This document shows positions 28,572-46,965 of a DNA stretch of 64,000 nucleotides, in pieces. Position numbers and translations under genes: made by a program. The notes under the pieces are model-generated. The model worked only from the letters and a program-made list of their open reading frames with translations. It was not told the DNA's origin and made no database searches. This DNA is from Nitrospirota bacterium. Its GTDB lineage: Bacteria > Nitrospirota > JACRHJ01. Within the stretch, counting starts at the first letter, position 1. Each line of letters opens with the position of its first letter. Where the stretch lies: assembly GCA_963845245.1 (NCBI GenBank), contig CAWJRJ010000015.1, positions 1 to 64,000 on the forward strand, in the 5' to 3' direction.

Positions 28572-31500
28572 ATGAGCAGGAAAGCCATAATAGCAAGCGG
28601 CATTATAGCGTTGTTGCTGGCAGGCAACACGGTTTGGGCGGTAACGGTAAACTCGGTCCATACAAACTACAGACCGGGTTACACATCAGGGTGCAGCACC
28701 AGCACTGCATGTCATACGATATTTCAGGGTAGCTTCCTTCCAGCACAACTCGGCACTTACTCCAATAGAGCGGACTATACGGCTTTCTGCCTTTCATGCC
28801 ACAACCCGTCGGGCGAGGCTCATGAAAAGTCAGCCGGGTCCCCTTCCTCGATAGGCTACAAAAACCTTACCGGTTTCAGGATCAATACAAGCTACAGAGG
28901 GGTATCCCATAGCTGGACCGGCAAGATCGGCAACGCCGGCACCCGCACCCCGACGGCTACGGGTTTCGGAGGCACGACCTACATGCCGGACCAGAAGGTA
29001 GTCTGCCAGACCTGCCACGGCGCCATGGGGAAAACGACGGTCGACAACGTCCCCCTCGCGTCATCAAGCCGTCCGGTGGTCGACACTACAACAGATGCCG
29101 ACAGGAGGAAGTACCGGCTGTTCGGCAACTATGCGCCTACCGGGCAGTACCTCAACCAGTACACCAAAGTTTACAGGGACAACGGCTACTGGCAGAATGT
29201 GGAAGAGCCGCGCAAGAGAAAACAGTACCTGGTGAACCCGTCCGAGTATGTCTACAACAACCTCAGCGGGACGGTAACATTCAATGTAGCACAGCCCTCC
29301 TCGGCCTATATCTATGTTGAGATACCGGAGCCGTACCTGCGTGTCGGGAATTCCGCCAACCAGGTATGCGTTGACTGCCACAACGATCGAAGCGGAGGCA
29401 TGGTCAACCACCCCGGTGATATCCTGAAAAGATCCCAGCACCCGGTAGGCGTCCCGTTCGGGCACGTCAACGGTACTGGCGAGACACTCCGCAACATCAC
29501 AACAATAAAGCTGTATATGGAAGATGGGAAAGTGCTGTGCACCTCCTGCCATGACCCGCATAATGCAAAAAGCAACGACGGTAAACTGCTTCGCGAGCCG
29601 GAATCAGCGCTGCTGTGCCTTGACTGCCACGACAGCTCGAAAGTAAGCCTGCATAAAGGTAAAAAACATCCCAGATACCTGAACACAACAAGCGTAAAGG
29701 CGACGGTATGCACCGACTGCCACGGCCCGCATAATTCCGGGAACCTGTACCTTGTCAGGGACAAGGTGAATACGCCGTCGCGGGGTGTCAGGGAGGCCGA
29801 CTTCAAAAGTTTTACCGGGGCGGAGAGCTTCGGCGCAGACAGCGGCAACTCGATCTGCGAGGTCTGCCATACCGCCACGGACTACCACAGGGCGGACGGC
29901 TCCGTAAAGGGCCACAACCCGGGCAAGAAATGCATTACATGTCATCTGCACAAAAAGGGCTTCAGCCCGAGCGGTGGGACCGCCCCGTGTTATGGTTGCC
30001 ATGCGCCGGCCAAGGGCTCAAAGGACATCAAGAGCCTGATGGGCCTTGGAACGAGCTTTGCCGAAGGCGGGAAGACGTCGAGACATAAAATCATGTACGA
30101 CAACATAAGCGGCAGCAGCTGCCTTTCGTTGTGCCACGTCAGCGGACATAACACCGGTTCTCCCAACCTCAAGGTGGATAACGAACTGTCGCTCTGCAGC
30201 GGTTGCCACCTCAACGGCCCCGGACTCACAAGCTCAGGCAGGAGCATAAACGCTATCAATTACTATGCCGGATCGCAACACAACTACTCTGCGACTGTGC
30301 CGGACGAGTTCGGTTCATTCAGTTATACAGGAAACTGCACAAAGTGCCACCTGCCTCACGGCTCTGACAGCTACCCCAACCTAAGGCAGAGCATAAACGG
30401 CAAACCGACCGGCGGCAACACCGAGGAGCTCTGTTTCGGCTGCCATGACGGCACGAACGTGAAGGCCGCGGACATAAAGACGCCCTGGAAGGGAAACCCT
30501 GCCAACCACGGCCATTTCGACTATGCAAACAACACGCAGATGGCATGCGTGAAATGCCACGGCCCGCATGGTACACAAAACGACAAGATGATGCAGGACA
30601 GCCTTGGTGGGCCGTCACAAGGCCAGCCGATGCTCGCCAGAGACGGGATATGCCGTACCTGCCACAGCGGAAACGGCGGAAGCGTGTACAACGTGATGGG
30701 CACCGAGCCCGGCTCGTACGGCCCGGACTTCAGCGCAAGGTCGGTGCACGACTTCGGCCTGGACGTGGCAATGGGAGGACGCACGGTGGACCTCACCTGC
30801 GCCGGATGCCACGACCCGCACAACACGCTAAATGCAAGGCTTATACGCGACAGGATAGTCTTCAACGGTGTTACAGGGGGAGTGCGTTCGGTGCAGGTAA
30901 GGGTGGCCGCAAACATTCAGCAGGGGGACGGTATCAAGGAATATATAAGCGGCTGGAAAGACTACTGTGTCACATGCCATACCTCGATGGAAATCACGGG
31001 CGGCCAGTCTCCCTACAGGCGTCATCCGGTAGGTATCCCTCCGGGAGTTTTCTATCCGCACACCTCAGGGCTTGGCATGAAGAAGCTGCCTATGGAGTCG
31101 GGTAATATTACATGCGTAAGCTGCCACTACACCCACGGCTCGCCCAAACCATCGCTTCTCAGGTTTGAATCGGCCGATACCCCCGAGAACATGATGTGCC
31201 TGCAGTGTCACGACAAAGACAAGTTCCTGGAGGGCGGCGCGGGTTCGCACGGCGGGTTCATGCAGAACCAGGGCCGGTGTGCCGATTGCCACGATATGCA
31301 TTCCAAGGCGAACAGGATGCTACTGACGGACGCGACCGAAAGCGTGCTCTGCCTGAAATGCCACGGCGGCGGGAGCCTTTCGAAATACAACGTGTGGAGA
31401 GATATAACGACCACGAGGGACGCCTCGGCGCTTAAGGGTACGGGAGGTACTTTCGGGACGTATTCGGAACTCAGGGGCGGCACGTCCCACAGCCTGCACT

Positions 31501-34199
31501 CCGTCAACGACGAAGCGAACCCGGCTCCCGGCGGCATTACGACAAAGCACCGCTGCGGCACCTGCCACAACCCGCATGGGAGCAAAAACTACAGGGTGCT
31601 CCGTACGGCCGTGAACAACATAACCGGCATCTACGTGACGGCCAGGACTGACGTAGACGGGAACTTTGTAAACTACTCGACAGGGCTGGTCAAATTCTGC
31701 TCTGCATGCCATACGGACTACAGGACGACGGACGACGGGAACGGGAACTGGATAAGACACCCTGTAGGCATAAGGCTTACCGACTATCCAGCGGAGTACT
31801 ACAACTTCTGGACGAACACCAGCTACACGCCGAAGGTTGAGCTAGAGACAAACGAGACCATCTCCTGCGTGAGCTGCCATTTCGCGCACGGCTCGGCGGA
31901 ACCGGCAAACCTGAAGTTCCCGGGCGGCAGGTCGGTCAACGCGTGCAAGACATGTCACAACAAGGGCACGTTTGATGCAGGGACGCCCGGCTCGCATGCG
32001 GGTTTTGCCGGTAACGACGGCACGTGCTCAGACTGCCACAGCATGCACGCCGAAGGAAACGCAAAGCTCCTAAAGGCGGACGCGGAGACGGCTATTTGCG
32101 TCAGTTGCCACGACAACCCCGGCACCAGCACCAACAAGAACGCAAGCCATCTGGACGTCTGGAAGGGCAACGTCTTTGGTTCTCCCACATCATGGTTTGG
32201 CACCGCGGGTTCGTTCGGCTCATACGACCCGGTAAACGGCGGCAACGCGCCTTCGATGCACCCGGTAAACAGCGACGCGAGGATAGCGCCTGGCGATTCG
32301 GCAACGGTAGTCCACTGCGGCACATGCCATGACGGCCACGGCAGCACCAACTACCGCCTGCTCAAGACCACCCTTAACGGCAAGGCGAACATAGTGGTTT
32401 CAGCCAACGTGGACGCGAACGGTCATACGGTATCTTATAACGGCGGGATGTCCGGATTATGCACCGCATGCCACAAGTCGTATATTAACTGCGGGAGCGC
32501 CGCCGGATACACCCGCCACCCGGTGGATGTGGCGCTCACGGCGCAGGAGATGGCCAACTACGCACACGCGCAGGGGCAGAAATACCTGCCTCTTGAGGCG
32601 GGGAACAGGATCACCTGCACCACCTGCCACTTCGCGCACGGCTCGCCGTATCCGAATATGCTGAGGCTGCCTGGCAACCAGACCTGCCAGACCTGCCACG
32701 CCAAGGGCCTGGACAGCGCAAACGGCTACAGGGACGTCCAATATACGCACGGCGGTTTCAACGGGAATGGCGGCAACTGCTCGGTCTGCCACAGCATGCA
32801 TACCGCCAACCACAGGAAGCTGCTTCTGGCTGCGGAAGAATCAGAACTCTGTTACGGCTGCCATGCCCCGGATGGGAGTATGAGGTCTGACCACCAGACC
32901 GCCCAGCTGGTGTGGGCAGGGGACAAGCCGGCAACCCCTGACGGCTGGGACGGGACGGGCGGCTCGTTCGGCGCATTTTATAACAGCACCACGGGCGGTT
33001 CATCAAAAAGCCACCACGACATAAACAAGACCGACTCCCAGGCGCCTGGCGGGACTACTACGGAACACCGCTGCGGCACATGCCACAACCCACACGGGAA
33101 CAACAACTACAGGATATTAAGGGACGACGTGAACGGCAGGAGCGGAATAATAGTAAGAGCCGGGGCCATGGGCAATTACTCAAGCGGCATGACCGCGTTC
33201 TGCACGGCCTGCCATTCGGTTTATTCTCAGACCGGCTCCGGCGTAGACGGCTACCGCCGCCACCCGGTCGGACTTACCTTGACAAAGCAGGAGCAGTCGA
33301 ACCTCTCCAGCTTCGAGGGCGCGCCCAGGGCGCAGGTGGAGTCGGCGAAGGTGATGTGCCTGTCATGCCACTTTGCTCACGGCTCGGCCAGCTATGCCAT
33401 GCTCCGTATGCCGAATTTCACGTCGAGTGAAAGCGCGCTTTGCCAGCAATGTCACAAGAAGGGTTACAACGCCTCCGGCATCCAGTATAAGAACACGCAC
33501 GGAGGTTTCAACGGGAATAACGCGAACTGCGGTGTATGCCACAGCGTCCATGCAAAGAACAACAAGAAGCTGCTTATGGAGGCGAAGGAATCACAGCTGT
33601 GTGACAACTGCCATTCCGGTATCAAGAATTTCACGGAGTTCAAGTCGAATGACCCGGAAGTGAAGATAAATGCGCCCAGCCGCTTCAACGTATTTTCCTC
33701 GATAGGCAACTCCTTCGGCAACTATTCCGTCGGTGGCGGCGACGTGCAGTCATGGCACGAGGTTGACGGCACGCATACGGCGCCTGGCGGCAAGACGCTG
33801 GAACTGCGGTGCGGCAAGTGTCACAACACCCACGGCGGCGACAACTTCGCGATGCTCAGGGAGACCATAGAGAACGTAACCGGGATTCGGGTGTTCGGCC
33901 ACTTAAGCTCGACCGGTCCGAACAATACTTATACGTCCGGCTTCGGGAAGTTCTGCTCCTCTTGCCATACAAAGCTGAACAGGTGCGGAGGCAATCCGTG
34001 GACGAGGCATCCTGTCGATTTCAGGCTCACGGACAGGGAGTACCGGAACTGGTCAGGCTCGGCGTTGACGCCGAGGGTGCCGCTGGAGGAGGGTGACATG
34101 GTCACCTGTATCACATGCCACTCAAGCCATGGTTCGAAGAACTATTCGCTGCAGAGGCAGGGCGGTAACAGGATGTGCCAGCAGTGCCATAAAAGATAG
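28572..34199 (+). CDS. Giant secreted multiheme cytochrome c (~42 CxxCH plus CX5CH and CX3CH variants)
   Basis: Sec signal peptide ending VWA; motifs counted by hand; many CxxCHxxH (CHxPHG) doubled-motif units. Confidence 0.95.
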   Translation: MSRKAIIASGIIALLLAGNTVWAVTVNSVHTNYRPGYTSGCSTSTACHTIFQGSFLPAQLGTYSNRADYTAFCLSCHNPSGEAHEKSAGSPSSIGYKNLTGFRINTSYRGVSHSWTGKIGNAGTRTPTATGFGGTTYMPDQKVVCQTCHGAMGKTTVDNVPLASSSRPVVDTTTDADRRKYRLFGNYAPTGQYLNQYTKVYRDNGYWQNVEEPRKRKQYLVNPSEYVYNNLSGTVTFNVAQPSSAYIYVEIPEPYLRVGNSANQVCVDCHNDRSGGMVNHPGDILKRSQHPVGVPFGHVNGTGETLRNITTIKLYMEDGKVLCTSCHDPHNAKSNDGKLLREPESALLCLDCHDSSKVSLHKGKKHPRYLNTTSVKATVCTDCHGPHNSGNLYLVRDKVNTPSRGVREADFKSFTGAESFGADSGNSICEVCHTATDYHRADGSVKGHNPGKKCITCHLHKKGFSPSGGTAPCYGCHAPAKGSKDIKSLMGLGTSFAEGGKTSRHKIMYDNISGSSCLSLCHVSGHNTGSPNLKVDNELSLCSGCHLNGPGLTSSGRSINAINYYAGSQHNYSATVPDEFGSFSYTGNCTKCHLPHGSDSYPNLRQSINGKPTGGNTEELCFGCHDGTNVKAADIKTPWKGNPANHGHFDYANNTQMACVKCHGPHGTQNDKMMQDSLGGPSQGQPMLARDGICRTCHSGNGGSVYNVMGTEPGSYGPDFSARSVHDFGLDVAMGGRTVDLTCAGCHDPHNTLNARLIRDRIVFNGVTGGVRSVQVRVAANIQQGDGIKEYISGWKDYCVTCHTSMEITGGQSPYRRHPVGIPPGVFYPHTSGLGMKKLPMESGNITCVSCHYTHGSPKPSLLRFESADTPENMMCLQCHDKDKFLEGGAGSHGGFMQNQGRCADCHDMHSKANRMLLTDATESVLCLKCHGGGSLSKYNVWRDITTTRDASALKGTGGTFGTYSELRGGTSHSLHSVNDEANPAPGGITTKHRCGTCHNPHGSKNYRVLRTAVNNITGIYVTARTDVDGNFVNYSTGLVKFCSACHTDYRTTDDGNGNWIRHPVGIRLTDYPAEYYNFWTNTSYTPKVELETNETISCVSCHFAHGSAEPANLKFPGGRSVNACKTCHNKGTFDAGTPGSHAGFAGNDGTCSDCHSMHAEGNAKLLKADAETAICVSCHDNPGTSTNKNASHLDVWKGNVFGSPTSWFGTAGSFGSYDPVNGGNAPSMHPVNSDARIAPGDSATVVHCGTCHDGHGSTNYRLLKTTLNGKANIVVSANVDANGHTVSYNGGMSGLCTACHKSYINCGSAAGYTRHPVDVALTAQEMANYAHAQGQKYLPLEAGNRITCTTCHFAHGSPYPNMLRLPGNQTCQTCHAKGLDSANGYRDVQYTHGGFNGNGGNCSVCHSMHTANHRKLLLAAEESELCYGCHAPDGSMRSDHQTAQLVWAGDKPATPDGWDGTGGSFGAFYNSTTGGSSKSHHDINKTDSQAPGGTTTEHRCGTCHNPHGNNNYRILRDDVNGRSGIIVRAGAMGNYSSGMTAFCTACHSVYSQTGSGVDGYRRHPVGLTLTKQEQSNLSSFEGAPRAQVESAKVMCLSCHFAHGSASYAMLRMPNFTSSESALCQQCHKKGYNASGIQYKNTHGGFNGNNANCGVCHSVHAKNNKKLLMEAKESQLCDNCHSGIKNFTEFKSNDPEVKINAPSRFNVFSSIGNSFGNYSVGGGDVQSWHEVDGTHTAPGGKTLELRCGKCHNTHGGDNFAMLRETIENVTGIRVFGHLSSTGPNNTYTSGFGKFCSSCHTKLNRCGGNPWTRHPVDFRLTDREYRNWSGSALTPRVPLEEGDMVTCITCHSSHGSKNYSLQRQGGNRMCQQCHKR

Positions 34200-34237: not shown

Positions 34238-37200
34238 ATGATACGTAGATTTTTAATATCGATGCTGTCCCTGGCTATCGTCGCCGGGCTGGCTCTGAGC
34301 GGCACGCAATCCATGGCGGACGTGACGGGCAGGCCGCACGACCTGAGCATAGACAACGACGAGGGCCACTGCATCAACTGCCACGACCTGCACCAGGTAA
34401 ACCTGGGCGAGGGCTACCCTCACAACCTGAAGCGCGGCAACGAGATAAAGGTATGCTACCAGTGCCATGCAGGCGCATTCAGCGACTACAGCAGCATAGA
34501 CCCGTCGCTTGAAAACAGCGCCAGCCTGCTCAGCCACTACGACATACGTGCGGAGTTCAGCCAGCCTCATATCCATTTCCCGAGGTATGGCATGGACGGC
34601 GAGATAAACAAGTGCTCCTTCTGCCACAACCCGCACGGCGTCTTCAACCAGGGTTCCACGACCCGCAAGCCGAAGCTCCTCTCAGCCGGGCCTGATGCGG
34701 TGACTGACACGGACGAGTACTGCTTCGTATGCCATAACAGCGACCCCAACCCGCCGCATGCAAAGTTCTCGAACGTTTCGGTGGGCAACCAGTACAAGCT
34801 GTCAAGGAACACGTACAGGCAGATGACGCACTCGACCTTCTACCGCGCAACGACGGTTACCGAGCCGGTGCCGGACTCGGCACTGAACTACGACGACAAC
34901 CCGTACGGCAAGGGTAAGGACATCTCCTGCCTCACATGCCACAGGCCGCATGGCTCACCCAACGACCATATGCTGAAGGCGGCCGACAACCAGGATTTCT
35001 GCCTCTCCTGCCACAACGGGACAAAGGCACCGGACCTCAGCTCGTTCAACGCCACCGGCCACGGGAAGCCGGGCGCTGCCAGGATCTGCCAGGACTGCCA
35101 TTTCCCGCACGGCACCGGCCAGAAGGCGGCCATCAAGACCACCATCACCGACCCGCACACCGGCACGGCCAATCAGGCTGCGGTCAACGCCTCGGGCGTC
35201 AACGAGGCCTGCTTTGCCTGCCATGTTACGGTGTCTGCCCCTGTTGCAAGCTACAGCTTCGACAGCAGCCTGTCCGGCTGGAGCACGGGCGGTCTTACCC
35301 AGACGCTTGATACGGCGGTCTACTACCTGGGTGGCGGCTCCATGAAGCAATACCGCACTCCGGCTGCCTCGACCTATTCCTACTCCCCGCTCTGGCAGGT
35401 ATCGCCCAATACCCAGTACACATTCACGGTGTTCCGCTACATCCCGGCAGCGATCACCGACGGCGCGGCCTATGTCAGCCTGTACGAATTCACGAGCGCG
35501 GGCTCCAGTGTAAAGAGTGTCAACGTGGGGACGTCTTCTGCGGCTACCTCAAGGTGGGATAGGGTCACCTATACGTTCACGACTTCCTCGACAACGGGGC
35601 AGATCAGGATATATCTGTTCCTGTCCGGCTCCGGCACGGTATACTGGGACGAACTCAGGCTGGGCACTTCCTCCTCTATCAGCTATTACCAGGGCAAGAC
35701 GGCCTACAATTCCGGCATCCACAAGACGAGCGTAAATGCACTTAACCCCGGCGGCACGCACGGGGAGGCGGCAGGGGACTGCGACAACTGCCATAACCCG
35801 CACGGCAGGGGCTATGACAAGATGCTCGTGGATACGCGCGACCAGAAGCTATGTTACGACTGCCATAACGAGATAACGCCTAACACAAAGAGCGGCAGGG
35901 ACGTTAAGGCCGACTTCCAGATGGTGTCCCGCCACGACCTGGCCAAGGTCGCTTGCGTCAACTGCCACAACGTGCACAAGGCCACCCAGTCGCAGGTGAT
36001 GATGGACCCGCAGGACGCGAGCCAGTATATGACGGATAAGACCGTATTCTGCCTTTCCTGCCATTCGGGCGTTATGCCCGCAGGCGTCACAGGCGCGCCG
36101 AACATTAACACGGAGTGGTCCGGAGGCGGGCATGACAATACACACTCCCTTACATGCTCTGACTGCCATGAGAGCCACAGCTCGCAAAACACCAAGAACC
36201 TCAACTATACAGCCAGGGCATATAACGGGTATACCGCACGGTTCCTTGCAGGGATGAGTTTCGGCTCACGCGCGTTCTGCGAGGCATGCCACAACCGCAC
36301 GAGGGCGGGGTACAAGGGCGCAAAGATAATACCTACAGGAAGCGGTTACGTGGGCCAGCATGGGCAGTCCGACCAGACTCCTTGTTCCAGTTGCCACACA
36401 AGGAAACATAACCCGGCTATTGCAAACTACACGGGCAGTTCCAGCTATTATACATCCAGATGCCTTGACTGTCACACACAGGGTACCGGCAACCCCTACC
36501 CCAACCCGGACGCCGATTTCAACACCCCGCGAAATGGTGCCGACCCTGACACACGGGCCTCGATACACAATATAAACTATAATCCTCCGACGTCGGTAGA
36601 CTGCATAAAATGTCACGGGTCCAGGCATGAGATCAACCACAGTCCGGCAAGTAAGGTATTCGATCCGGACACTTCGCACGGCTCTTCCGGCCCGTTCGAT
36701 GTCTCTTCCTCGTCCGCGTTCTGCCTTGAATGCCACGACCAGACGCCTGTCAGTATCGGCGGCAGGACTCCGCAGAACATTCTAGACACGTATACCTCTG
36801 CGGGACACGGCTCGACACACGGAGGACAGGTGGTGTGTTCGGCATGCCACACACACCACGGCTCAACCAAGATAAAACTGATAAAGGATACGATAAACGC
36901 AAAGCCTGTACTGGGTACATATTCCGGGGACAACGTAACCGTATGCACCGCATGCCACTACGGCACCGATGCGCGCCTCCCGCAGTGGGGCGGTTACCAG
37001 GTGTATTCAGGCTCGGTGCACGCCTTCGGCAACAGGTCCACCGGCAGGTATGTCACGGACGGCAGACACGGAAGAGGTACCTGCGTAAACTGCCACAACC
37101 CGCACGGCTCGCGCGTGGGCGGCAAGACCGTCCCGAGCATGCTGTATAAGAAGGAGGAGGAAGTCTGCTACACATGCCATAACTCGGTTACGCCCAATAC

Positions 37201-40200: not shown

Positions 40201-43200
40201 CTACCACAGCGGGCGCGGCGTCTATTCCGTCCAGCACGGTGGCGGCTGCGGCGACCCTGACCCGTTCGACGGCAGCGACTTTTTCGAGGACGGCACGCGC
40301 AGGGGCCAGGTCACGTCGGTCAACCCGCCCTCAAACGCCAACGACCTTTGCTTCATGTGTCACCAGGTGGACGATATCATAGGCACGGCTTCCGGCGGCA
40401 TGGCTGCCGCTAATACGAAGTTCCTGGGCCACGAGGCCGTGAAGGGCGGCGCAACCATAAGCCACAACATCTCGAAAAACGGCAACGGCGTGGGGAGCGA
40501 CTACCACAATTTCTCGTGTTCCGCATGCCACTTCCCGCACAGCTCCAGCATGAACAAACTCCTGAAGCAGGGCTGCATGAGCCAGGCGGACGCGACCCAG
40601 GACCCGAACCCCTCATATGGCAGCATTTTCCAGTGCCACTCCTACACGAAGGTTTGGTCAGGTGGCTATCAGGGCTGGAGGAACCTCACTACCGCCAAGG
40701 CCGACTTCAAAAGGCCGCCCAACCCGGTAACTAACCTGGCGGTCTCGCAGGACCCGGACCTCACTATCCACCTGTCATGGACGGCCGTTGCCGACGCACC
40801 CGGCCAGGGCGCACACCATTACAACGTCTACAGGTCTAGCCAGCCTATCATGCAGGATACCAAGGCTGCGGCCGCCAGGATATCAAACAAGGCGCTTTCA
40901 GGCGGGGTGCCGGGTTCGGGCATGGCCTATGACGACAGGACCTGCCAGCCTAACACCACCTATTACTACGCGGTGGTGGCCTGCGACCCGGAGAACAACG
41001 AGTCGTTCGTGTCAAACTGTGTGATGGCAGCCATGGGCGCCGACACCTATGCCCCGGCTACAATTGCCGACCAGACTACCGCACAGGTAGACGGCACATA
41101 CAACGTAAAGCTGACATGGCACGACCCGGGTGACAACGTGAACGTTACGCAGTACAAGGTCTACAGAAAGTCTGGCCTTGTCACTTTGGCGAACGACGAT
41201 ATCGTTTCAGGCAATTTCCTTGGCGTCGCCGGTAACCCGGTAACCGACACCAGCCTCAGCGCAGACGGTAGCGCGGACACCAATAGTTACACGTTCACCG
41301 ATGCCACTACCCAGCTCGGGCAGGATTACTCCTATGCCGTTGTCGCATTGGATGCGGCAGGCAACGTATCCCCGGTACCTGCCGGGACCAGCTTCAGCGT
41401 GAGTATAATCGATCCGGCCCCGGCTGCCTTGACTACGCTTACCGCAAAGCCGGTGTCCAAAGAAATGCACGCCCAACTTACCTGGACCGCGCCGGGTAAC
41501 CAGGGAAACATATCAGGATACAAAGTCTACAGGAAGTCGGGTCCGGCGTTTGTACAGGCAGACCTTGTCCCTGGCAACCTTCTAACGACTGTAACAACTC
41601 TCAGCTATACGGCGGATATCCCAGCGGCCGGTACGGATTTCTACTTCGCGGTCACCGCGCTGGACCAGTCTTCCGGCAGGGAATCTAAGCTCGGCAACAA
41701 CGCCCTGATCAACGTGCCGCAGCCGCCGTCAGACCTGTCTTCCGCAAGGCTTTTCAACAGCGGCTTGAAGCTGAGCTGGACCGCACCGTCTTATACCGCC
41801 GACTTCAGGAGCTACAAACTTTATGTCAGACGCAACTCAGGTGCCTGGGCGCAGATGAACCCGGTGGACAACCTGGTGTCAAACGGAAGCTTCGAGGTCG
41901 ACCTCACAGGCTGGACGGCAAGCTCGCTGACGGCCGCAAGGGATTACTCCAGTTCAGCGGATGGCGTGTCCTGCGCAGTGCTCACCGGCACATATGCCGG
42001 CGACAAGTTCCTTGGGTCTGGCATGGTGGCGGTTGCGCCGTCTATAGCCTACACCTATTCAGGCTATGTAAAAGTACCCATCGCCCTGGCGGGCGGCACG
42101 ACCGCGCTCAAGGTCATAGAATACAACTCATCCGGAGGCTACGTAACCGAGCATACCGCTACGGGGGTGTCGGTCACATCCGGCTGGCAGAAACTTACCG
42201 ATATGTGGACAACATCCGCCACCACTACGCAGGTCAAACTAAAGCTTCAGATGTCGGGTACAGGGACCGCATACTGGGACGACGTCCGGCTTGGCTCATC
42301 GGTATCCGTCGGGACCTCAGCCAGGCTTGATTTTACAGGGCTTGAGCCCGGCAACTACGAAGTAGCGGTAACCGCCAACTACGGGACATACGGCGGCAGC
42401 ACCCCTTACGAGTCCATACCTTCGGCGTCCGTGCCATGCGTCATTGACGATACGTCCACGCCGGTTGACATTACAGTCTCGGGAGCCCTCACCCCTGCCT
42501 CGAACTATACGACGCCCAGCCTGTCATGGAATGCGCCGGCGGACAGAAACTTCACGGGCTACACGCCTTCCGGGCTGTCCTCTTACCGGATACAGTCCTC
42601 CCGCGACCAGGGCAAGACCTGGCTGACCGTGCACCGCAGCAGGCTCACAAACCCGGGGTTTGAAACCCATGGCGGAATAGCCGACGATGCCAACACCGAC
42701 ACTTTTACCGGATGGGGCGCGAGCAACATAAATATGTTTGCTGTCACGGACGCGATATTCGACAACAGGGCGTTAAAGATCAGGTATGCCGGTTCAGGCG
42801 ACACGTATGTCAATTCGGCAGAGCCGACCACTGGACAGTCGGTGGCTGGCAAGGCATACTCGATGTCGTTCTGGGCGAAGGCCAGCAAGCCCGCCACCTT
42901 CCAGTATTTCATACAGGCGAACGGCGGGAACTACGAATCCATCGGTACGGTTTCTCCATCGATCGGTACGGAATGGACGATGTTCACTACTTCCGGTTCG
43001 TTCAGCAGCAGCGCAACCGCCTCCGGCGCAAGGGTCATCATCCGGCCATCGTCCGACACATCCGTCGATATAACATTGGACGGGGTAAGGCTTGACGCAG
43101 GCAACGGCGCGCTCCTGGCAAACGACGGCAGTTTTTATCAGCCTGCGAACTACGGCGTCCCAGGCAGTGCCCAGGGCTTTGACGACCCGACCCCGCTGGT

Positions 43201-46114
43201 CGCCGGGACGTCCGCAAGATACCGCATACAGGCGGTCGACGCGAAAGGCAACATATCCGGTACTGCTGCCAGCACCGTGTTCGCGAAACCGGCGGCAATA
43301 ACCGACCTTACAGCCACTAGCTCGCAGACAAGCTCCGCAAACGTCCTGATGTTCAGTGCGCCCGTCACCCTTGCCGGCCTCTCCAGCTATAAGGTATACG
43401 GGAAAGAGCAGGGGACGGCGCTGGTGAACCTCAACGGCGCGACCTTGCTTGGTACAGTTACACCGGCCATAAACCACGGGGGGAACATCGCGGCCGAGTC
43501 CACGCCATCGGCAAGCCACGTCTACTCAACCGGGACAAATTACGCTGCGTCAAATGTCGTCGACGGGAACACCTCCACCTACTGGTACGGCAAAAACGGC
43601 GTCGGGCCGAACTACCTCACGCTTGCCTTTGGTTCACCCATACCGGTTTACAAGGTGTCGTTGTCCTTCTATAGTTCTACATCTTACTGCCCGAAGGATT
43701 ACCTTATACAGACATACGACGGCTCAGCATGGGTGACGCGAGTCACGGTGACGAACGATACTTCCATGGCCCCTACCTATACTCTCTCCGAACCGGTGAA
43801 CGCGAGCCAGGTAAGGATATACATCACGGAGACACGCGGCGGCATGGCGTCATACTTCCCGATAATAGGGGAGTTCATGGTATATCCGGGCGAGAAGTTC
43901 ACGCACAACCTCCAGAACACGGCTCTGAAGGCCGAAGTCGGCCATACCTATGCATATGCCGTCATCGCCGAGGACGTGAATGCGGTCAGTTCCGACATCT
44001 CCAGCGGCCCGGCCACAGTAAGGGCCGTACAAGACAAGGACGGCCCCGACAAGGTGACCGACTTGAGCGTAACGAGCCCGGTGGGCACAACCCAGGTCAT
44101 GCTCAACTGGAGCACGCCGCTCGACAACCTCGGGCGCGGGAGCACGGGGGCGACAGGCTACGAGATATACAGGCTGCCTACCGGCCTCTCAGGCACGCCG
44201 ATGCCGGTTACCGACAGCAACTTCAACACTGCGAGCCTCGTCTACAGCGGCACCTACGCATCTAGCCAGGCCGGCACCCAAAACAGCTATACCGCGACAT
44301 GGTATGACCACGAAGGGGTCAATTACGCGGTACGCTCAAAGGATTCCATCGGCAACTGGTCGCCAATATCCAACAGCCCGTTCATAGTAGTGGGCAAGGA
44401 TACGCAGGCCCCGTCTCCTCCGGTGATCACCGAGTGCATCCCGGTCGATTCGCCTGAGGTGGACGTATACTGGAACGCGGCTGCCGACAACATCGGCGTA
44501 AACGGATACAGGTTGTACCGCGCCGACGTGAACGTCGAACCTTTCCTGACCGATAAATGCATCACCGAGAACAACATCGGCAGCGCTCAGGTAGCTGTGA
44601 ACCTTATATCCTATTATATGAACAGCGCGGCGGATGAAGGCGGGACGCCCGGAAATACATATTACTATGCGCTTCGGGCCTGGGACGACGAGAACAACAT
44701 GTCGAACATATCGAACTGCGCCGTCGCAACCGTCAGGACTACCGAGCAGGACACAACGTCTCCGACATGGAGGGGGGCGTCTCTTACGGCGATACAGCAG
44801 CCCTACCCCGACATAGACCTGATATGGACATCGGCTGCCGACCTGAACGACTCCGGTGGCGCGGGTAGCATAGACCATTACGAGGTATACAGAAGCCAGA
44901 CAAGCTTCAGCTCGACCACAGACCCCGGCGTGTCCATGATCGCGACCGTATCCGGCATAAGGAACTCATATTCTGACAGGACCGGCGACCACGAGGCGAC
45001 GTATTACTACGCGCTGGTGGCGGTGGATGCAGCGACGGCGCACAACAGGAGCGCGATCTCAAACGTAGCGTCTGCACAGGTGGCGCCTGCCCCGTCGCCT
45101 GACAATGCGCCGCCCTCGATACCCGGCTCACTTGCGGTATCTACCGGCGTCTACCCGGACATCAACATATACTGGACGGCCTCGACTGACGTGGACGATT
45201 CGGGCACGGGCCAACAGCTCCTGTACTACAAGCTCTACCGGTCCCGCTATCCGCTCGACATAACCGAAGCCAACAAGCAGAACCCCGCCGAGGTTGATAC
45301 GGTCATGATAGCGTGCGATGCCACCAGCTATACCGCAAGGGGCATCGGAGGGACGCAGTACAACTACAGGCTCGAGGCGTTCGACATGGCAGGAAACGGG
45401 TCGGGACTGAGCGTTCAGCTTATGGGACAGGTGGCGCCTGCCCCGTGCGTGGATTCCACCCCGCCGCGCGCCCCTGCCGACCTGAACGCGACAATAGGCC
45501 CCTCGCCCGATATAGACCTTTCATGGACCGCATCCATAGACGACGGAGGCGTCTGCTCCGGGCAGATCGACCATTACCTTCTCTACAAGGCCAATTACGA
45601 GATAAAGGCCGACACGGACCTGCGGTCGCTTCCGCATATCTATGTAGGCGGGAAGGGCACCTCGTATACCGATTCCACAGGCATACCCAACACGCAATAC
45701 TGGTATGTCCTGACCGCTGTGGACACCTCGGCAAACGAGTCGGCCAGCTCCAACATCATAACGGGGACTACAGGGGCGGACACGATGGCGCCCGCGTCGG
45801 TTACCGACCTGAAGGCTACCCCGGGCACGGGCGAGATAAATCTTACCTGGTGCAGGCCTTCGGACAACGTCGGTATCCACCATTATGAGATCTACAGGAA
45901 AGAACAGGGTACTATCATGACGGACGCGGATATAACGCTGGCGAACAAGTTGACCTGCTTCGCGAATGGCGGTGTCTGCCTGTCATGCAACGATGCGGCC
46001 GTCCTGGCCGGCCATACTTACAGCTATGCGGTCATCGCGGTGGACGGTTCAGGCAACCGTTCGACGATCAGCAGAGGGCAGCACGACGGCGATACCGTCG
46101 GGATAATGCCATGA
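34238..46114 (+). CDS. Giant secreted multiheme cytochrome c (~44 CxxCH plus a CX4CH) with CBM-like domains, Fn3 repeats and an F5/8-type C-like domain
   Basis: Signal peptide; heme motifs to ~40640; then repeated L.W.A..D......Y.VYR...Y.Y.V.A.D..GN.S Fn3 units, NGSFE/NPGFE CBM-like domains and an ASNVVDGNTSTYW discoidin-like domain. Confidence 0.95.
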   Translation: MIRRFLISMLSLAIVAGLALSGTQSMADVTGRPHDLSIDNDEGHCINCHDLHQVNLGEGYPHNLKRGNEIKVCYQCHAGAFSDYSSIDPSLENSASLLSHYDIRAEFSQPHIHFPRYGMDGEINKCSFCHNPHGVFNQGSTTRKPKLLSAGPDAVTDTDEYCFVCHNSDPNPPHAKFSNVSVGNQYKLSRNTYRQMTHSTFYRATTVTEPVPDSALNYDDNPYGKGKDISCLTCHRPHGSPNDHMLKAADNQDFCLSCHNGTKAPDLSSFNATGHGKPGAARICQDCHFPHGTGQKAAIKTTITDPHTGTANQAAVNASGVNEACFACHVTVSAPVASYSFDSSLSGWSTGGLTQTLDTAVYYLGGGSMKQYRTPAASTYSYSPLWQVSPNTQYTFTVFRYIPAAITDGAAYVSLYEFTSAGSSVKSVNVGTSSAATSRWDRVTYTFTTSSTTGQIRIYLFLSGSGTVYWDELRLGTSSSISYYQGKTAYNSGIHKTSVNALNPGGTHGEAAGDCDNCHNPHGRGYDKMLVDTRDQKLCYDCHNEITPNTKSGRDVKADFQMVSRHDLAKVACVNCHNVHKATQSQVMMDPQDASQYMTDKTVFCLSCHSGVMPAGVTGAPNINTEWSGGGHDNTHSLTCSDCHESHSSQNTKNLNYTARAYNGYTARFLAGMSFGSRAFCEACHNRTRAGYKGAKIIPTGSGYVGQHGQSDQTPCSSCHTRKHNPAIANYTGSSSYYTSRCLDCHTQGTGNPYPNPDADFNTPRNGADPDTRASIHNINYNPPTSVDCIKCHGSRHEINHSPASKVFDPDTSHGSSGPFDVSSSSAFCLECHDQTPVSIGGRTPQNILDTYTSAGHGSTHGGQVVCSACHTHHGSTKIKLIKDTINAKPVLGTYSGDNVTVCTACHYGTDARLPQWGGYQVYSGSVHAFGNRSTGRYVTDGRHGRGTCVNCHNPHGSRVGGKTVPSMLYKKEEEVCYTCHNSVTPNTASGEDVQARFKMLTHHNISDADQLGPDGIAGTADDSKIECEDCHDPHTITERLMAFKNVSDAGGRHTMSIEADQDFCVKCHSPNPPARVKYPAEGVWDKSKYDQSAHGNHLKRRKGFGNYSNGITYPCKVCHNPHGSNQAGQQRESWDINRDGIPDDIDGDGILDSSDTVGFIGYSTGTHRVMLVSSISGIPSRASFKRISTTIPYQANGSIDVEICLNCHDGSPAYDVETDIKKRSHHPVEYSQQVGLGGAKIECYNCHDQHRAQATNEAAGEYATTNPDAPREPMPGDASFCLRCHDNTLPPGVSFGSRHLKNIKLSYNPRDHRDTKGYDVITTFMGHYVQATGRPMMCRDCHNQHGSNYTNMLRDNTEPGKPGYDPAQPVQLMQPVALGLTDPMGGGDNEPLTSTTEHCLACHSGVTTYNGNRIPLPPPPDAFERGLTVSSVGKHPDLKPDVTVADEAGGHLYKGTFALVTTPGSVKEECTQCHDSHNPFIATVDGQLTNCYQCHNENTSLPDTQSEFNDNPTNPTRSNSIHPIKFDPRAAGPSAVECLKCHDQSRHMQGKVRLRKNPGTFINYSSDSSVWADPVAARTINSFCLECHGPDTTVATSFWRGGVEHVPPRLPAGHVGGAHFVNANLLCTDCHEYHGSKNKGLRKNAKGDEETFCYNCHSDPAKSRNGIDIQAKFEGTASHHIINAAEQSAKGAKLECEDCHNPHVVTRTAPVVKADDSSTAAVSDTSFCISCHDSNGAPGVKFPGYSTGTSGAEWDPATGKWNKWNKAAYAGSQHDAAGNISCKKCHDPHGSPNTATLLQNISSTSGISVSFGAHSTIRGKRMEELGVNKVCSACHKSSMGVYNGYAGYTGLTFGKKHGVDKNCTYCHNPHGTGAANLVRSTMPLYMNMTSPKFGSVYNFKGFGNPTTGKPFYVFCSSAGCHASERAQIDTFDMDLAPDNFTRNVASSSHHPMKEGVMGCTACHKEHGSGFAPDLRAAYFRESNWPKLYHSGRGVYSVQHGGGCGDPDPFDGSDFFEDGTRRGQVTSVNPPSNANDLCFMCHQVDDIIGTASGGMAAANTKFLGHEAVKGGATISHNISKNGNGVGSDYHNFSCSACHFPHSSSMNKLLKQGCMSQADATQDPNPSYGSIFQCHSYTKVWSGGYQGWRNLTTAKADFKRPPNPVTNLAVSQDPDLTIHLSWTAVADAPGQGAHHYNVYRSSQPIMQDTKAAAARISNKALSGGVPGSGMAYDDRTCQPNTTYYYAVVACDPENNESFVSNCVMAAMGADTYAPATIADQTTAQVDGTYNVKLTWHDPGDNVNVTQYKVYRKSGLVTLANDDIVSGNFLGVAGNPVTDTSLSADGSADTNSYTFTDATTQLGQDYSYAVVALDAAGNVSPVPAGTSFSVSIIDPAPAALTTLTAKPVSKEMHAQLTWTAPGNQGNISGYKVYRKSGPAFVQADLVPGNLLTTVTTLSYTADIPAAGTDFYFAVTALDQSSGRESKLGNNALINVPQPPSDLSSARLFNSGLKLSWTAPSYTADFRSYKLYVRRNSGAWAQMNPVDNLVSNGSFEVDLTGWTASSLTAARDYSSSADGVSCAVLTGTYAGDKFLGSGMVAVAPSIAYTYSGYVKVPIALAGGTTALKVIEYNSSGGYVTEHTATGVSVTSGWQKLTDMWTTSATTTQVKLKLQMSGTGTAYWDDVRLGSSVSVGTSARLDFTGLEPGNYEVAVTANYGTYGGSTPYESIPSASVPCVIDDTSTPVDITVSGALTPASNYTTPSLSWNAPADRNFTGYTPSGLSSYRIQSSRDQGKTWLTVHRSRLTNPGFETHGGIADDANTDTFTGWGASNINMFAVTDAIFDNRALKIRYAGSGDTYVNSAEPTTGQSVAGKAYSMSFWAKASKPATFQYFIQANGGNYESIGTVSPSIGTEWTMFTTSGSFSSSATASGARVIIRPSSDTSVDITLDGVRLDAGNGALLANDGSFYQPANYGVPGSAQGFDDPTPLVAGTSARYRIQAVDAKGNISGTAASTVFAKPAAITDLTATSSQTSSANVLMFSAPVTLAGLSSYKVYGKEQGTALVNLNGATLLGTVTPAINHGGNIAAESTPSASHVYSTGTNYAASNVVDGNTSTYWYGKNGVGPNYLTLAFGSPIPVYKVSLSFYSSTSYCPKDYLIQTYDGSAWVTRVTVTNDTSMAPTYTLSEPVNASQVRIYITETRGGMASYFPIIGEFMVYPGEKFTHNLQNTALKAEVGHTYAYAVIAEDVNAVSSDISSGPATVRAVQDKDGPDKVTDLSVTSPVGTTQVMLNWSTPLDNLGRGSTGATGYEIYRLPTGLSGTPMPVTDSNFNTASLVYSGTYASSQAGTQNSYTATWYDHEGVNYAVRSKDSIGNWSPISNSPFIVVGKDTQAPSPPVITECIPVDSPEVDVYWNAAADNIGVNGYRLYRADVNVEPFLTDKCITENNIGSAQVAVNLISYYMNSAADEGGTPGNTYYYALRAWDDENNMSNISNCAVATVRTTEQDTTSPTWRGASLTAIQQPYPDIDLIWTSAADLNDSGGAGSIDHYEVYRSQTSFSSTTDPGVSMIATVSGIRNSYSDRTGDHEATYYYALVAVDAATAHNRSAISNVASAQVAPAPSPDNAPPSIPGSLAVSTGVYPDINIYWTASTDVDDSGTGQQLLYYKLYRSRYPLDITEANKQNPAEVDTVMIACDATSYTARGIGGTQYNYRLEAFDMAGNGSGLSVQLMGQVAPAPCVDSTPPRAPADLNATIGPSPDIDLSWTASIDDGGVCSGQIDHYLLYKANYEIKADTDLRSLPHIYVGGKGTSYTDSTGIPNTQYWYVLTAVDTSANESASSNIITGTTGADTMAPASVTDLKATPGTGEINLTWCRPSDNVGIHHYEIYRKEQGTIMTDADITLANKLTCFANGGVCLSCNDAAVLAGHTYSYAVIAVDGSGNRSTISRGQHDGDTVGIMP

Positions 46115-46941
46115 AAAACTTTAATCGGCTTGTAACGGTTTTATTGTCTCTTGCTCTGACGGCGGTCTTTGCCGCATCGTCACGCGCGTCGGTAGATACT
46201 CCGCCGGGTGTCTATTTCGGGGAGACCATCTTTGAGGTAAAAGACGGTTCGATCATAGCTCCCAGGGCAAGGCATCTGCCATTTGAGCCCCCAAAAGAAT
46301 TCGGGCGGTTGAAGGCCGGCTGGACCCCGATGAAGGATGGCGAATATGTAGCGTATGATACCGACGGGATATTAGACACGGAGCAGGGGACATTCGAGGT
46401 TGACCTGGTGCTTCTGGGGGATGAAGGGAAACCCTTGATAACGCACAATTACGTTCAAGCGCTCATCACCTTGTATGACGGCAGGGAAAAGGCCTTCTTT
46501 ACCATAGGCATAAACAACACCGACCTGGTGATAGGCAGTTTCCCGATCCACCCGATGCTGATGGAGGATGCGTTCGGCGGGGCCAGCTTCCCTTACCTGT
46601 CCAAGCTCGACGGCCCGCTCAGAGAAGGGACGGAGTTGAAAGTCACTGTAACCTGGGGACCTGGCCCCTCGGATGGCCGTGTCTATGTCAACGGCAGATA
46701 CATGGGCCTGGATTCAAGGAGGGGGCCGAAGGGCCGCGGCGCGCCGCCGGGGTATCAGCCGACAGCCTCATTCAGTTCGTTCCTCAAAGGCTTTGAAGGG
46801 TTTACGGGTGGTCCGGTAGGGCCGCCAAAGACGCTCACCATAGGCAGGATAGGTACCGACAGGAAGATAAACAGGACGGGCTCTCCCATGACGGTGGCTA
46901 TTAAAAGCGTCAGGCTGTCGGGACGGGCGGAGGTCCCGTAG
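46111..46941 (+). CDS. Exported hypothetical protein, possibly LamG/ConA-like beta-sandwich
   Basis: ATG overlaps the stop of the giant cytochrome (ATGA); signal peptide; QGTFEV, VTVTW...VYVNG and LTIG strands. Confidence 0.7.
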   Translation: MKNFNRLVTVLLSLALTAVFAASSRASVDTPPGVYFGETIFEVKDGSIIAPRARHLPFEPPKEFGRLKAGWTPMKDGEYVAYDTDGILDTEQGTFEVDLVLLGDEGKPLITHNYVQALITLYDGREKAFFTIGINNTDLVIGSFPIHPMLMEDAFGGASFPYLSKLDGPLREGTELKVTVTWGPGPSDGRVYVNGRYMGLDSRRGPKGRGAPPGYQPTASFSSFLKGFEGFTGGPVGPPKTLTIGRIGTDRKINRTGSPMTVAIKSVRLSGRAEVP

Positions 46942-46965
46942 GTCGGGGGTCAGGTTGTTTGTATC

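What the first reader, a model, noticed from the sequence alone, without database searches (positions are those of the whole stretch)
28572..46941. Operon of two giant secreted multiheme cytochromes (~86 canonical hemes) plus an accessory protein
Seen: 1875 aa (~42 CxxCH) and 3958 aa (~44 CxxCH), 38 nt apart, both with Sec signals and no obvious lipobox or TM anchor, followed by an overlapping exported beta-rich gene; the frames are uninterrupted over 18 kb. Known: well-characterised extracellular electron transfer cytochromes are much smaller (MtrC 10, OmcS 6, OmcZ 8 hemes). Inference: single-chain extracellular wires, the larger one tethered by adhesin domains. No porin or maturation gene is adjacent in this window.
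Basis: partly seen in the sequence, partly recalled or inferred. Interest (0 to 1): 0.85.

Follow-up and report, generated by a model that had tools for sequence, protein, structure and literature searches.

The report
Giant 42- and 44-heme cytochrome cassette
Three neighbouring genes of an uncultured groundwater Nitrospirota bacterium encode two enormous exported proteins with 42 and 44 heme sites plus a small sugar-binding-like partner, probably a long electron cable at the cell surface; such giants are already known from genome mining, but none has been tested.

Summary
Window 28572-34199 encodes 1875 aa with 42 CxxCH. Window 34238-46114 encodes 3958 aa with 44 CxxCH, all within the first 2100 aa. 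A 276-aa exported gene follows, its ATG overlapping the stop (ATGA). Shuffled sequences give about 0.2 motifs.

B is an all-heme protein: an N-terminal module followed by 4.3 tandem copies of a ~250-aa hexaheme unit. Each unit has six invariant extra histidines. C carries a ~1800-aa tail of fn3-like, CBM4_9 and discoidin domains. D looks like a LamG-type lectin jellyroll (weak model).

B-C-D is a conserved cassette. It occurs in 2 of 12 genomes of the family and in about a dozen metagenome contigs. D was found in 2 of 401 Nitrospirota genomes, always beside B-C.

The genome has System II heme attachment, MtrAB-type porin-cytochrome pairs, secretin systems and DsrAB.

Extracellular location and wire function remain inferred. 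Giant cytochromes with 40 to over 100 motifs are already reported from genome mining, so this is an uncharacterised variant of a known kind. Interest 0.45.

The parts
28572..34199 (+). Gene B: 1875-aa all-heme cytochrome with 42 CxxCH, one Cx3CH (C517-H522) and a near-invariant Cx5CH-like site (C41-H48)
   Evidence: All 42 CxxCH are invariant in 12 orthologues. Pfam Paired_CXXCH_1 E 5e-118. NCBIfam TIGR01905 and TIGR03508.
28572..28640 (+). B signal peptide (aa 1-23, ...TVWA|V), no lipobox
   Evidence: Sequence; the only hydrophobic segment. No SignalP was run.
28641..30236 (+). B N-terminal module (aa 24-555). It is homologous to ~700-aa 12-heme cytochromes elsewhere in the genome and family, and to the 7-heme C-terminus of gene A
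   Evidence: 43-46% identity to C24:145484-147574 and C21:60502-62607.
30237..30962 (+). B diverged repeat R0 (aa 556-797)
30963..33947 (+). B tandem hexaheme modules R1-R4 (aa 798-1039, 1040-1295, 1296-1542, 1543-1792). Each has 6 CxxCH plus 6 invariant further His
   Evidence: 35-42% identity between repeats. Alignments, the latter covering 20 repeats from 5 proteins.
33948..34196 (+). B partial fifth module (aa 1793-1875, 3 CxxCH)
34238..46114 (+). Gene C: 3958-aa cytochrome-adhesin fusion with 44 CxxCH plus one Cx4CH (residue 1916)
   Evidence: The nine listed orthologues of 3965-4206 aa with 49-69% identity have 44 CxxCH each; P0078 (57%) has 50.
34238..34318 (+). C signal peptide (aa 1-27, ...QSMA|D)
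34319..40687 (+). C heme region (aa 28-2150), 48.9 aa per CxxCH
35249..35632 (+). CBM_4_9-like beta-sandwich inserted between hemes 8 and 9 (aa ~338-465). The Pfam score is below the cut-off
   Evidence: 22.5 bits against a cut-off of 25.9. 32% identical to the tail CBM.
40688..46111 (+). C non-heme tail (aa 2151-3958) with several fn3-like repeats
41870..42253 (+). CBM_4_9 domain 1 (aa 2545-2672)
   Evidence: 29.1 bits
42647..43045 (+). CBM_4_9 domain 2 (aa 2804-2936)
43520..43852 (+). F5/8 type C (discoidin) domain (aa 3095-3205)
   Evidence: E 1e-14
46111..46941 (+). Gene D: 276-aa exported, beta-rich protein, probably a LamG/ConA-like jellyroll. Its start overlaps the stop of C (ATGA)
46932..46951 (+). 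Terminator-like hairpin at the stop of D. The next gene is on the opposite strand
21969..27482 (+). Gene A (context, not part of the cassette): 1837-aa beta-propeller/RCC1/Ig protein with a 7-heme C-terminus related to the N-terminal module of B
27934..28011 (+). Direct-repeat copy of the 3' end of tRNA-Ala. It lies between A and B and closes a ~10.9-kb island-like segment that starts at 16980

Best explanation
B-C-D is a conserved three-gene cassette for a long-range electron conduit at or beyond the outer face of the cell envelope of a Dsr-carrying, uncultured Nitrospirota bacterium.

Shown:
- Both large genes encode Sec-type exported proteins packed with conserved c-type heme sites.
- B is heme-only. 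It grew by tandem duplication of a ~250-aa hexaheme unit, and each unit has six invariant extra histidines, enough for bis-His ligation of every heme.
- C joins a 44-45-heme region to a ~1800-aa tail of fn3-like, CBM4_9 and discoidin domains.
- D is a small exported protein found only beside B-C.
- The genome supplies System II heme attachment, two MtrA/MtrB-type porin-cytochrome pairs and secretin-based export systems.

Inferred:
- After heme attachment in the periplasm, C is exported and held on polysaccharide or another surface by its lectin-like tail and by D.
- B either extends the heme chain outside the cell or bridges the periplasm to an MtrB-type porin.
- Together they carry electrons over tens of nanometres between the cell and a mineral, an electrode-like surface or a partner cell. 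At roughly 1 nm per heme (figure recalled from solved linear cytochromes, not computed here) this would be about 35-45 nm per chain.
- The direction of electron flow is open.
For: - Motif counts and chance control.
- Conservation: all 42 CxxCH of B are invariant in 12 orthologues of 61-88% identity. The nine listed C orthologues of 3965-4206 aa with 49-69% identity have 44 CxxCH each.
- Repeat structure of B. The 20-repeat alignment has 6 invariant CxxCH and 6 invariant further His.
- Signal peptides, with no other hydrophobic segment and no lipobox.
- Tail domains typical of surface proteins.
- D co-occurs with B-C. It was found in 2 of 401 Nitrospirota genomes sampled (G000 and G002), adjacent to C in both. 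It has 10 homologues among 5.8 billion clusters; two sit on contigs whose lengths (32790 and 50563) equal those of contigs bearing B and C homologues.
- D as a LamG-type jellyroll: atlas score 0.97. The listed Foldseek matches are lectin-type jellyrolls.
- Other giant cytochromes carry a fused Laminin_G_3 domain: P0085, P0087 and P0089.
- B-C adjacency holds in G002/L020, L021 and L022, although the upstream genes differ.
- ResB plus CcsA at three loci.
- MtrA-like decaheme plus MtrB/PioB porin at C11:187397-190410 (315 bits), and a weaker pair on C16.
- The MtrB family is in 11 of 12 genomes of the family.
- Secretin systems are present. One lies directly beside the paralogous giant-cytochrome cluster on C24.
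- The heme units resemble MtrA/DmsE and doubled-CXXCH units.
Against: - Nothing here tests localisation, heme loading or conduction.
- No porin, inner-membrane quinol oxidoreductase or export gene lies in the cassette or the window, and neighbours upstream are not conserved.
- Export of a folded holo-protein of about 435 kDa plus its hemes through a secretin has no precedent that I know of.
- Heme density (44.6 and 48.9 aa per CxxCH) is lower than the 22-25 reported for PCC3-type wires (passages in PMC7399161 and PMC5566968).
- The structure prediction of two B modules failed (pLDDT 33), so a linear heme chain is not shown.
- The D model is weak (pLDDT 56) and Pfam and NCBIfam give no hit.
- The bin is 90% complete with 5.2% contamination, and it holds two contigs that are ~90% identical over 14 kb. 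Partner genes elsewhere in the bin may therefore belong to a close relative.
Confidence: 0.6

Rival explanations
1. Periplasm-confined role. B and C stay between the membranes as electron stores (capacitors) or as wires bridging the inner membrane to MtrAB-type porins. The fn3, CBM and discoidin domains would then bind peptidoglycan or periplasmic glycans.
For: - They have Sec signals only, and no export gene lies in the cassette.
- The heme units are MtrA/DmsE-like.
- In PCC3 clusters a large periplasmic cytochrome (median 21 hemes) is proposed to span the periplasm, and a capacitor role has been proposed for large cytochromes (passages in PMC5566968 and PMC7399161).
- The proteins are very large for a secretin.
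Against: - At roughly 1 nm per heme (recalled) and ~4 nm per fn3 (recalled), each protein would exceed the width of a periplasm.
- CBM4_9, discoidin and long fn3 arrays are typical of surface and secreted proteins (established knowledge, not tested here).
- Gram-positive-type lineages carry similar cytochrome-fn3 fusions of ~3050-3100 aa with 42 CxxCH.
Confidence: 0.22
2. Extracellular or surface redox enzyme or scavenger rather than a wire. The heme array would reduce or oxidise soluble or colloidal substrates bound by the lectin-like domains, such as metals, humics, sulfur species or oxygen radicals.
For: - Substrate-binding-like modules, one of them inserted inside the heme region.
- Odd sites (Cx3CH, Cx4CH, Cx5CH-like) that could hold special hemes.
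- The genome carries DsrAB and a heme-copper oxidase.
Against: - No CxxCK or other known catalytic motif.
- Every module has one extra invariant His per heme, as expected for six-coordinate transfer hemes.
- No match to any catalytic multiheme family above its cut-off.
Confidence: 0.13
3. Assembly artefact or decaying genes with no function.
For: - The assembly has many split housekeeping genes: ATP synthase alpha, PPDK, Pyr_redox, COX1 and a stop inside dsrA.
- The paralogue of C on C18 is broken into at least four frames.
Against: - 18 kb of open frame.
- Full-length orthologues on independent contigs with every heme motif kept.
- Gene order is conserved.
Confidence: 0.02

Closest known systems
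PCC3 porin-cytochrome clusters of Proteobacteria (He et al. 2017, PMC5566968, passages read) and the 24- plus 49-heme pair before a porin in Burkholderiales (Arbour et al. 2020, PMC7399161, passages read)
   Same: - Two adjacent very large repeat-built multiheme cytochromes, proposed to act as molecular wires across and beyond the envelope.
- Distant sequence relation: ~1050-aa proteins with 42 CxxCH match B at 22-25% identity. An earlier scan note, not checked here, calls one 42-heme chain PCC3-type.
   Different: - No porin and no five-helix inner-membrane protein in the cassette.
- About twice as many residues per heme.
- A large lectin/fn3 tail and a LamG-like partner.
- The host is Nitrospirota.
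MtrCAB / MtoAB / DmsE-family decaheme systems (PDB 6R2Q chain A; NCBIfam TIGR03508; Pfam PF22113, PF11854)
   Same: - The heme units of B and C score against the DmsE/MtrA family model (272 and 213 bits, summed over 9-10 partial stretches) and weakly against MtrC/MtrF pentaheme domains.
- The only solved sequence matches are 6r2q_A and NrfB. That 6R2Q is the MtrCAB complex with chain A = MtrA is recalled; the tool's own label for the chain differs.
- The genome has MtrA/MtrB-like pairs.
   Different: - Four times as many hemes per chain.
- No lipobox.
- Not adjacent to the porin.
- The matches are partial and repeated, not full length.
Giant multiheme cytochromes reported from genome mining in Desulfuromonadia, Methanoperedenaceae and others (PMC11492766 and bioRxiv 10.1101/2025.05.29.656830, passages read)
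   Same: Single chains with tens of heme motifs (69, 53, up to 75, over 100), mostly predicted extracellular, built from repeated modules, and never characterised. The largest solved structure is the 16-heme HmcA.
   Different: - Not members of the Geobacter-type CxxxxCH/CxxCH family: no TIGR01904 hit.
- The complete hexaheme unit of B is matched over its full length by only two clusters, both of the B family, among the 150 best of 6337 hits in 1.84 billion representatives.
Polymerising cytochrome nanowires OmcS/OmcE/OmcZ (recalled, apart from mentions in PMC11492766)
   Same: The proposed job is the same: micrometre- to nanometre-scale extracellular heme chains.
   Different: Those are filaments of small 4-8-heme subunits. 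Here length would come from one polypeptide. No sequence similarity was found.

Membership tests
Multiheme c-type cytochrome (general) | Several CxxCH heme-attachment motifs | tested here: met
   42 and 44 motifs against ~0.2 in shuffles; conserved in orthologues.
Multiheme c-type cytochrome (general) | Export signal, and a heme-attachment system in the genome | tested here: met
   Signal-like N-termini. ResB and CcsA-type genes at three loci. No CcmE, so System II.
Multiheme c-type cytochrome (general) | A distal ligand for each heme | tested here: met
   Six invariant non-motif His per hexaheme unit in 20 repeats. 63 and 80 non-motif His overall. Actual ligation is not testable here.
MtrA/DmsE decaheme family (TIGR03508) | Full-length match to a ~300-aa decaheme | tested here: not met
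   The score passes the cut-off only as a sum of 9-10 partial stretches covering model positions ~93-224 of 258. The proteins are 1875 and 3958 aa.
MtrA/DmsE decaheme family (TIGR03508) | Gene next to an MtrB/PioB-type porin | tested here: not met
   No such gene in the window. The porins lie on contigs C11 and C16.
MtrC/OmcA outer-surface decahemes | Lipoprotein signal (lipobox Cys) | tested here: not met
   No Cys at or near the cleavage region.
MtrC/OmcA outer-surface decahemes | Pentaheme domains II/IV (PF22113) | tested here: inconclusive
   C gives E 1e-49 over 9 stretches, but single windows score only 24-47 bits around the 30-bit cut-off, in B as well.
PCC3 cluster | Porin plus a conserved five-helix inner-membrane protein in the same cluster | tested here: not met
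   Only B, C and D lie between 28.5 and 47 kb. None has a membrane segment beyond the signal. D is a ~250-aa jellyroll-like protein.
PCC3 cluster | Very low residues-per-heme ratio (about 22-25) | tested here: not met
   44.6 (B) and 48.9 (C heme region).
Geobacter-type CxxxxCH/CxxCH giants (TIGR01904 / PF09698) | Match to the family model | tested here: not met
   Absent from the NCBIfam and Pfam hit lists at E up to 0.01.
Polymerising nanowire cytochromes (OmcS/OmcE/OmcZ) | Sequence or fold similarity; filament formation | tested here: not met
   No match among solved chains. Filament formation is not testable with these tools.
LamG / concanavalin A-like jellyroll (gene D) | Match to a family model or a confident fold match | tested here: inconclusive
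   No Pfam or NCBIfam hit. Atlas features 0.97 to Laminin_G_3 clusters. The listed Foldseek matches are lectin-type jellyrolls, but TM is 0.3-0.5 on a pLDDT-56 model.

The most novel reading that the evidence does not exclude
B and C dock end to end into one non-polymeric heme cable of 86-89 hemes and about 100 nm, fixed by the lectin-like tail and by D to the surface of a partner cell or a mineral. Through it, this Dsr-carrying Nitrospirota lineage would exchange electrons directly with other organisms or solids in groundwater. This would be a way to build a 'nanowire' by lengthening one polypeptide instead of polymerising small subunits.
Probability: 0.15. Interest if true: 0.8.

Novelty: new variant of a known kind. 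Interest (0 to 1): 0.45.

Why it matters
- The largest multiheme cytochrome with a solved structure has 16 hemes (passage in bioRxiv 10.1101/2025.05.29.656830). Why some microbes build chains of 40 and more hemes instead of filaments of small subunits is an open question (discussion passage in PMC11492766).
- This cassette is a clean test case: a heme-only rod made of four near-regular hexaheme units, a partner that couples hemes to binding domains, and a dedicated small lectin-like protein, all conserved.
- It also suggests that a Dsr-carrying groundwater Nitrospirota family combines MtrAB-type porins, present in 11 of 12 genomes searched, with optional giant extensions. This bears on mineral and interspecies electron transfer in aquifers.

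Tried and rejected
- **Structure of two B modules** (aa 1040-1541, 14-row alignment): failed, pLDDT 33 and pTM 0.18. No fold search or length estimate was made from it.
- **RNA evidence:** no RNA holder listed. One DNA run holds 6% of the words.
- **Metagenome locus search with the B alignment:** the patterns chosen were generic CxxCH peptides. Only 2 of 76 loci (L021, L022) were true orthologues.
- **tmRNA remnant between A and B:** a weak hit of 18 bits was rejected. The sequence is a repeat of the 3' end of tRNA-Ala, and the real tmRNA is on C21.
- **Division of labour 'B = poly-MtrA, C = poly-MtrC':** rejected. Both give similar weak PF22113 and TIGR03508 signals.
- **Gene A as part of the operon:** rejected. 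It is separated by 1090 nt holding the tRNA repeat. It is absent upstream of B in G002, L021, L022 and on C18.
- **D as a porin:** rejected.
- **CcmE (System I):** not found in a 90% complete genome.
- **ATP-citrate lyase search:** uninformative, because the control genomes did not ring either.
- **Literature:** the phrase 'giant multiheme cytochrome' found 0 papers. Among the 15 listed of 202 papers holding two of 'multiheme', 'discoidin' and 'CXXCH', none held 'discoidin'. Of 'multiheme cytochrome', 'fibronectin type III', 'CXXCH' and 'Nitrospirae', only PMC5566968 held three. I therefore found no description of this family in these searches. Supplements were not opened.
- **Earlier scan notes** by place and by sequence: nothing.
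- **Complex prediction:** not used. Heme-free models of these proteins are too poor for a pass or fail to change my odds.
Full report
**1. The observation**

The three frames are as described:
- B: 28572-34199, 1875 aa.
- C: 34238-46114, 3958 aa, starting 38 nt after B.
- A third frame ending at 46941.

B has 42 CxxCH plus one Cx3CH. C has 44 CxxCH plus one Cx4CH, all within residues 45-2094. Shuffled copies of the proteins give 0.2-0.3 motifs, with a maximum of 2.

Each protein has one hydrophobic segment, at the N-terminus. It is followed by an Ala-x-Ala-type site and no lipobox cysteine. No signal-peptide program was available.

D most likely starts at the ATG at 46111, which overlaps the stop of C as ATGA. 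Its ten homologues align from there. A terminator-like hairpin sits at the stop of D, and the next gene is on the other strand.

**2. Anatomy of B**

B is heme from end to end, at 44.6 aa per motif.
- Residues 24-555 form an N-terminal module. It recurs as ~700-aa 12-heme cytochromes in this genome (C24:145484-147574 and C21:60502-62607, 43-46% identity). ORFs of ~690-900 aa matching it at 40-47% identity lie in five further genomes of the family (G001, G002, G003, G005, G007).
- It also recurs as the 7-heme C-terminus of gene A and its paralogues.
- Next come a diverged repeat (556-797), four regular repeats (798-1039, 1040-1295, 1296-1542, 1543-1792) and a partial fifth (1793-1875). The repeats are 35-42% identical to one another.

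In 20 repeats taken from five proteins, six CxxCH and six further histidines are invariant. The further histidines sit in the contexts RHP, CxxCH..HGS, H.GF, CxxCH..H, S.H and CxxCH..HG. That is one candidate distal ligand per heme.

All 42 motifs are invariant in 12 orthologues.

A profile of the unit searched against 1.84 billion cluster representatives found 6337 proteins. Among the 150 best listed, only two clusters, both of the B family, match the unit over its full length. The others match mainly the central part, about positions 40-150, some from its start but none to its end. That part is the widespread doubled-CXXCH block.

**3. Anatomy of C**

- After the signal come eight hemes.
- A beta-sandwich resembling CBM_4_9 is inserted at ~338-465. 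It scores 22.5 bits, below the Pfam cut-off, and is 32% identical to a CBM in the tail.
- Thirty-six more hemes follow, up to residue 2094.
- The tail runs from 2151 to 3958. It holds fn3-like repeats, two CBM_4_9 domains (2545-2672 and 2804-2936) and one F5/8 type C domain (3095-3205).
- There is no C-terminal hydrophobic sorting segment.

**4. Gene D**

D has no Pfam or NCBIfam match and only ten homologues among 5.8 billion clusters.

The language-model atlas puts it with Laminin_G_3 (LamG-like) jellyroll clusters at 0.97. An AlphaFold2 model is weak (pLDDT 56, pTM 0.61) and mostly beta. The Foldseek matches listed are lectin-type jellyrolls: CBM40, sialidase lectin domains, pentraxin, LamG/TSPN, and the lectin-like domains of clostridial neurotoxin binding parts. 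E-values are 2e-5 and weaker, and TM-scores are only 0.3-0.5.

Three other giant cytochromes in my hit list carry a fused Laminin_G_3 domain (P0085, P0087, P0089). This supports a working link between such a domain and giant cytochromes.

**5. Conservation and distribution**

- B has 14 homologues with 59-88% identity, ten of them covering the whole protein.
- C has nine listed orthologues of 3965-4206 aa with 49-69% identity and 44 CxxCH each, plus P0078 (57%) with 50.
- One C orthologue is in NCBI as 'discoidin domain-containing protein [Nitrospirae bacterium]'. The matching genome record is a groundwater Nitrospirae MAG.
- B-C adjacency is seen in G002/L020, L021 and L022. The genes upstream differ in each, and also at the second copy on contig C18.
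- D was found in 2 of 401 Nitrospirota genomes sampled: G000 with two copies, and G002. In both genomes it lies next to C.
- Of 12 genomes of the family, 2 have full-length B.

The cassette is therefore a rare accessory unit that sits in varying contexts.

**6. Genome context**

- The bin is 2.88 Mb in 37 contigs, 90% complete with 5.2% contamination.
- It holds six frames with 41-50 CxxCH. They are B and C; a paralogous pair on C18 (66% and 58% identical, its C copy broken into several frames); and two proteins of another architecture on C21 and C24, with a non-heme N-terminus of ~750 aa and no similarity to C beyond single motifs.
- It has ResB/CcsA System II genes at three loci and no CcmE.
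- It has an MtrA-like decaheme with an MtrB/PioB porin (315 bits) on C11, and a weaker pair on C16.
- It has three secretin systems. One is a pseudopilin/PilMNO/secretin/T2SSE/T2SSF cluster directly beside the C24 giant-cytochrome cluster.
- It has a heme-copper oxidase and DsrA (571 bits) next to a DsrB-like frame.
- MtrB-family porins occur in 11 of 12 genomes of the family.
- Caution: contigs C4 and C28 are ~90% identical over 14 kb, so the bin may mix two close relatives.

**7. What it is like**

NCBIfam gives the doubled-CXXCH domain (TIGR01905) and the DmsE/MtrA decaheme family (TIGR03508). The latter match is a sum of partial hits. There is no match to the Geobacter-type CxxxxCH/CxxCH family TIGR01904.

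MtrC/MtrF pentaheme-domain hits are weak, and they occur in both proteins.

Among solved structures, only 6r2q chain A and NrfB match faintly. I recall 6R2Q as the MtrCAB complex with chain A as MtrA.

From the literature (passages read):
- PCC3 clusters pair a periplasmic and an extracellular giant cytochrome (medians 21 and 34 hemes, up to 63) with a porin and an inner-membrane protein. They are read as molecular wires (PMC5566968).
- A 24- plus 49-heme pair precedes a porin in Burkholderiales (PMC7399161).
- Desulfuromonadia have chains with 53, 69 and up to 75 motifs (PMC11492766).
- More than 100 motifs have been mined, while the largest solved structure has 16 hemes (bioRxiv 10.1101/2025.05.29.656830).

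My own hit lists hold chains with 60-75 CxxCH and ~3050-3100-aa cytochrome-fn3 fusions with 42 CxxCH, one of them labelled Firmicutes.

Earlier notes of this scan describe similar giants in Nitrospirae and Thermodesulfovibrionia and judged them members of known kinds. I tested the family they named (TIGR01904), and it does not fit here.

**8. Mechanism**

Shown:
- export signals;
- dense, conserved heme sites with matching histidines;
- growth of B by duplication of a module;
- binding-type domains on C;
- a dedicated lectin-like partner;
- the maturation system, trans-outer-membrane conduits and secretins elsewhere in the genome.

Inferred:
- C, and perhaps B, reach the cell surface.
- They take electrons from, or give them to, the MtrAB-type conduits.
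- The heme files run lengthwise, which would give tens of nanometres per chain.

Whether B works outside the cell or bridges the periplasm is open, and so is the direction of electron flow.

I put 0.6 on a cell-surface or extracellular conduit, 0.22 on a periplasm-confined wire or store, 0.13 on a surface redox enzyme or scavenger, and 0.02 on an artefact.

**9. Verdict**

The cassette is an uncharacterised, narrowly distributed variant of a known kind: giant repeat-built multiheme cytochromes predicted to act in extracellular electron transfer.

Its particular features are:
- the regular hexaheme unit of B;
- the cytochrome-lectin fusion of C;
- the strictly linked LamG-like gene D;
- the lack of a porin in the cassette.

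Interest 0.45.

Noticed in passing
window 16980-17093 and 27934-28011: The 3' end of tRNA-Ala(GGC) (gene at 16949-21) is repeated in tandem just after the gene, and again 10,918 bp downstream (39 nt at 100%, 70 nt at 99%). The repeats frame an island-like segment that holds a BTAD/TPR regulator, a histidine-kinase fragment and gene A. No integrase was seen.
   Followed up: partly
window 21969-27482: Gene A is 1837 aa: YVTN beta-propeller, PKD, RCC1 propeller and Ig-like domains, then a 7-heme C-terminus related to the N-terminal module of B. At least six further frames in the genome (C7, C13, C17, C18, C29, C30) share this heme end (41-59% identity) behind different N-terminal parts.
   Followed up: partly
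G000 contigs C24:129612-147574 and C21:60502-80501: A second kind of giant-cytochrome cluster: a 12-heme B-like protein, 8-heme proteins and a 3697-3838-aa protein with 41-42 CxxCH behind a ~750-aa non-heme N-terminus. On C24 it lies directly beside a sigma-54 regulator, a kinase, pseudopilins, PilMNO, a frameshifted secretin, and T2SSE (with receiver and MshEN domains) and T2SSF genes.
   Followed up: partly
G000 contig C10:14087-14896: A second copy of gene D (42% identical) sits at the very end of a contig, so its upstream giant gene is not assembled. The C paralogue on C18 has no D after it.
   Followed up: no
window 6737-7643, 46966-49516, 61125-62718; also C18:44511-45834 and C17:132499-133671: Many housekeeping genes are split or carry a stop: ATP synthase alpha, a PEP-utilising enzyme, a pyridine nucleotide-disulphide oxidoreductase, COX1 and dsrA. 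This points to indel errors in the assembly rather than real decay.
   Followed up: no
G000 contigs C4 and C28: About 14 kb including groEL/groES is present twice at ~90% nucleotide identity, so the bin probably mixes two related populations.
   Followed up: no
window 10799-16275: A row of five genes for class I (cbb3-type domain) c-type cytochromes, the last with 5 CxxCH and a proline-rich linker, followed by an OmpA-family gene (16332-16868).
   Followed up: no
window 51297-55413: Two adjacent genes combine an MshEN (c-di-GMP-binding) domain with DUF202 membrane segments. They lie next to a receiver-PilZ protein and a HAMP histidine kinase. No secretion ATPase domain is attached.
   Followed up: no
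B residues 41-48 (window ~28692-28715): A C-x5-CH site (GCSTSTACH) is kept in at least 90% of 12 orthologues. It could be a further, non-canonical heme site.
   Followed up: no
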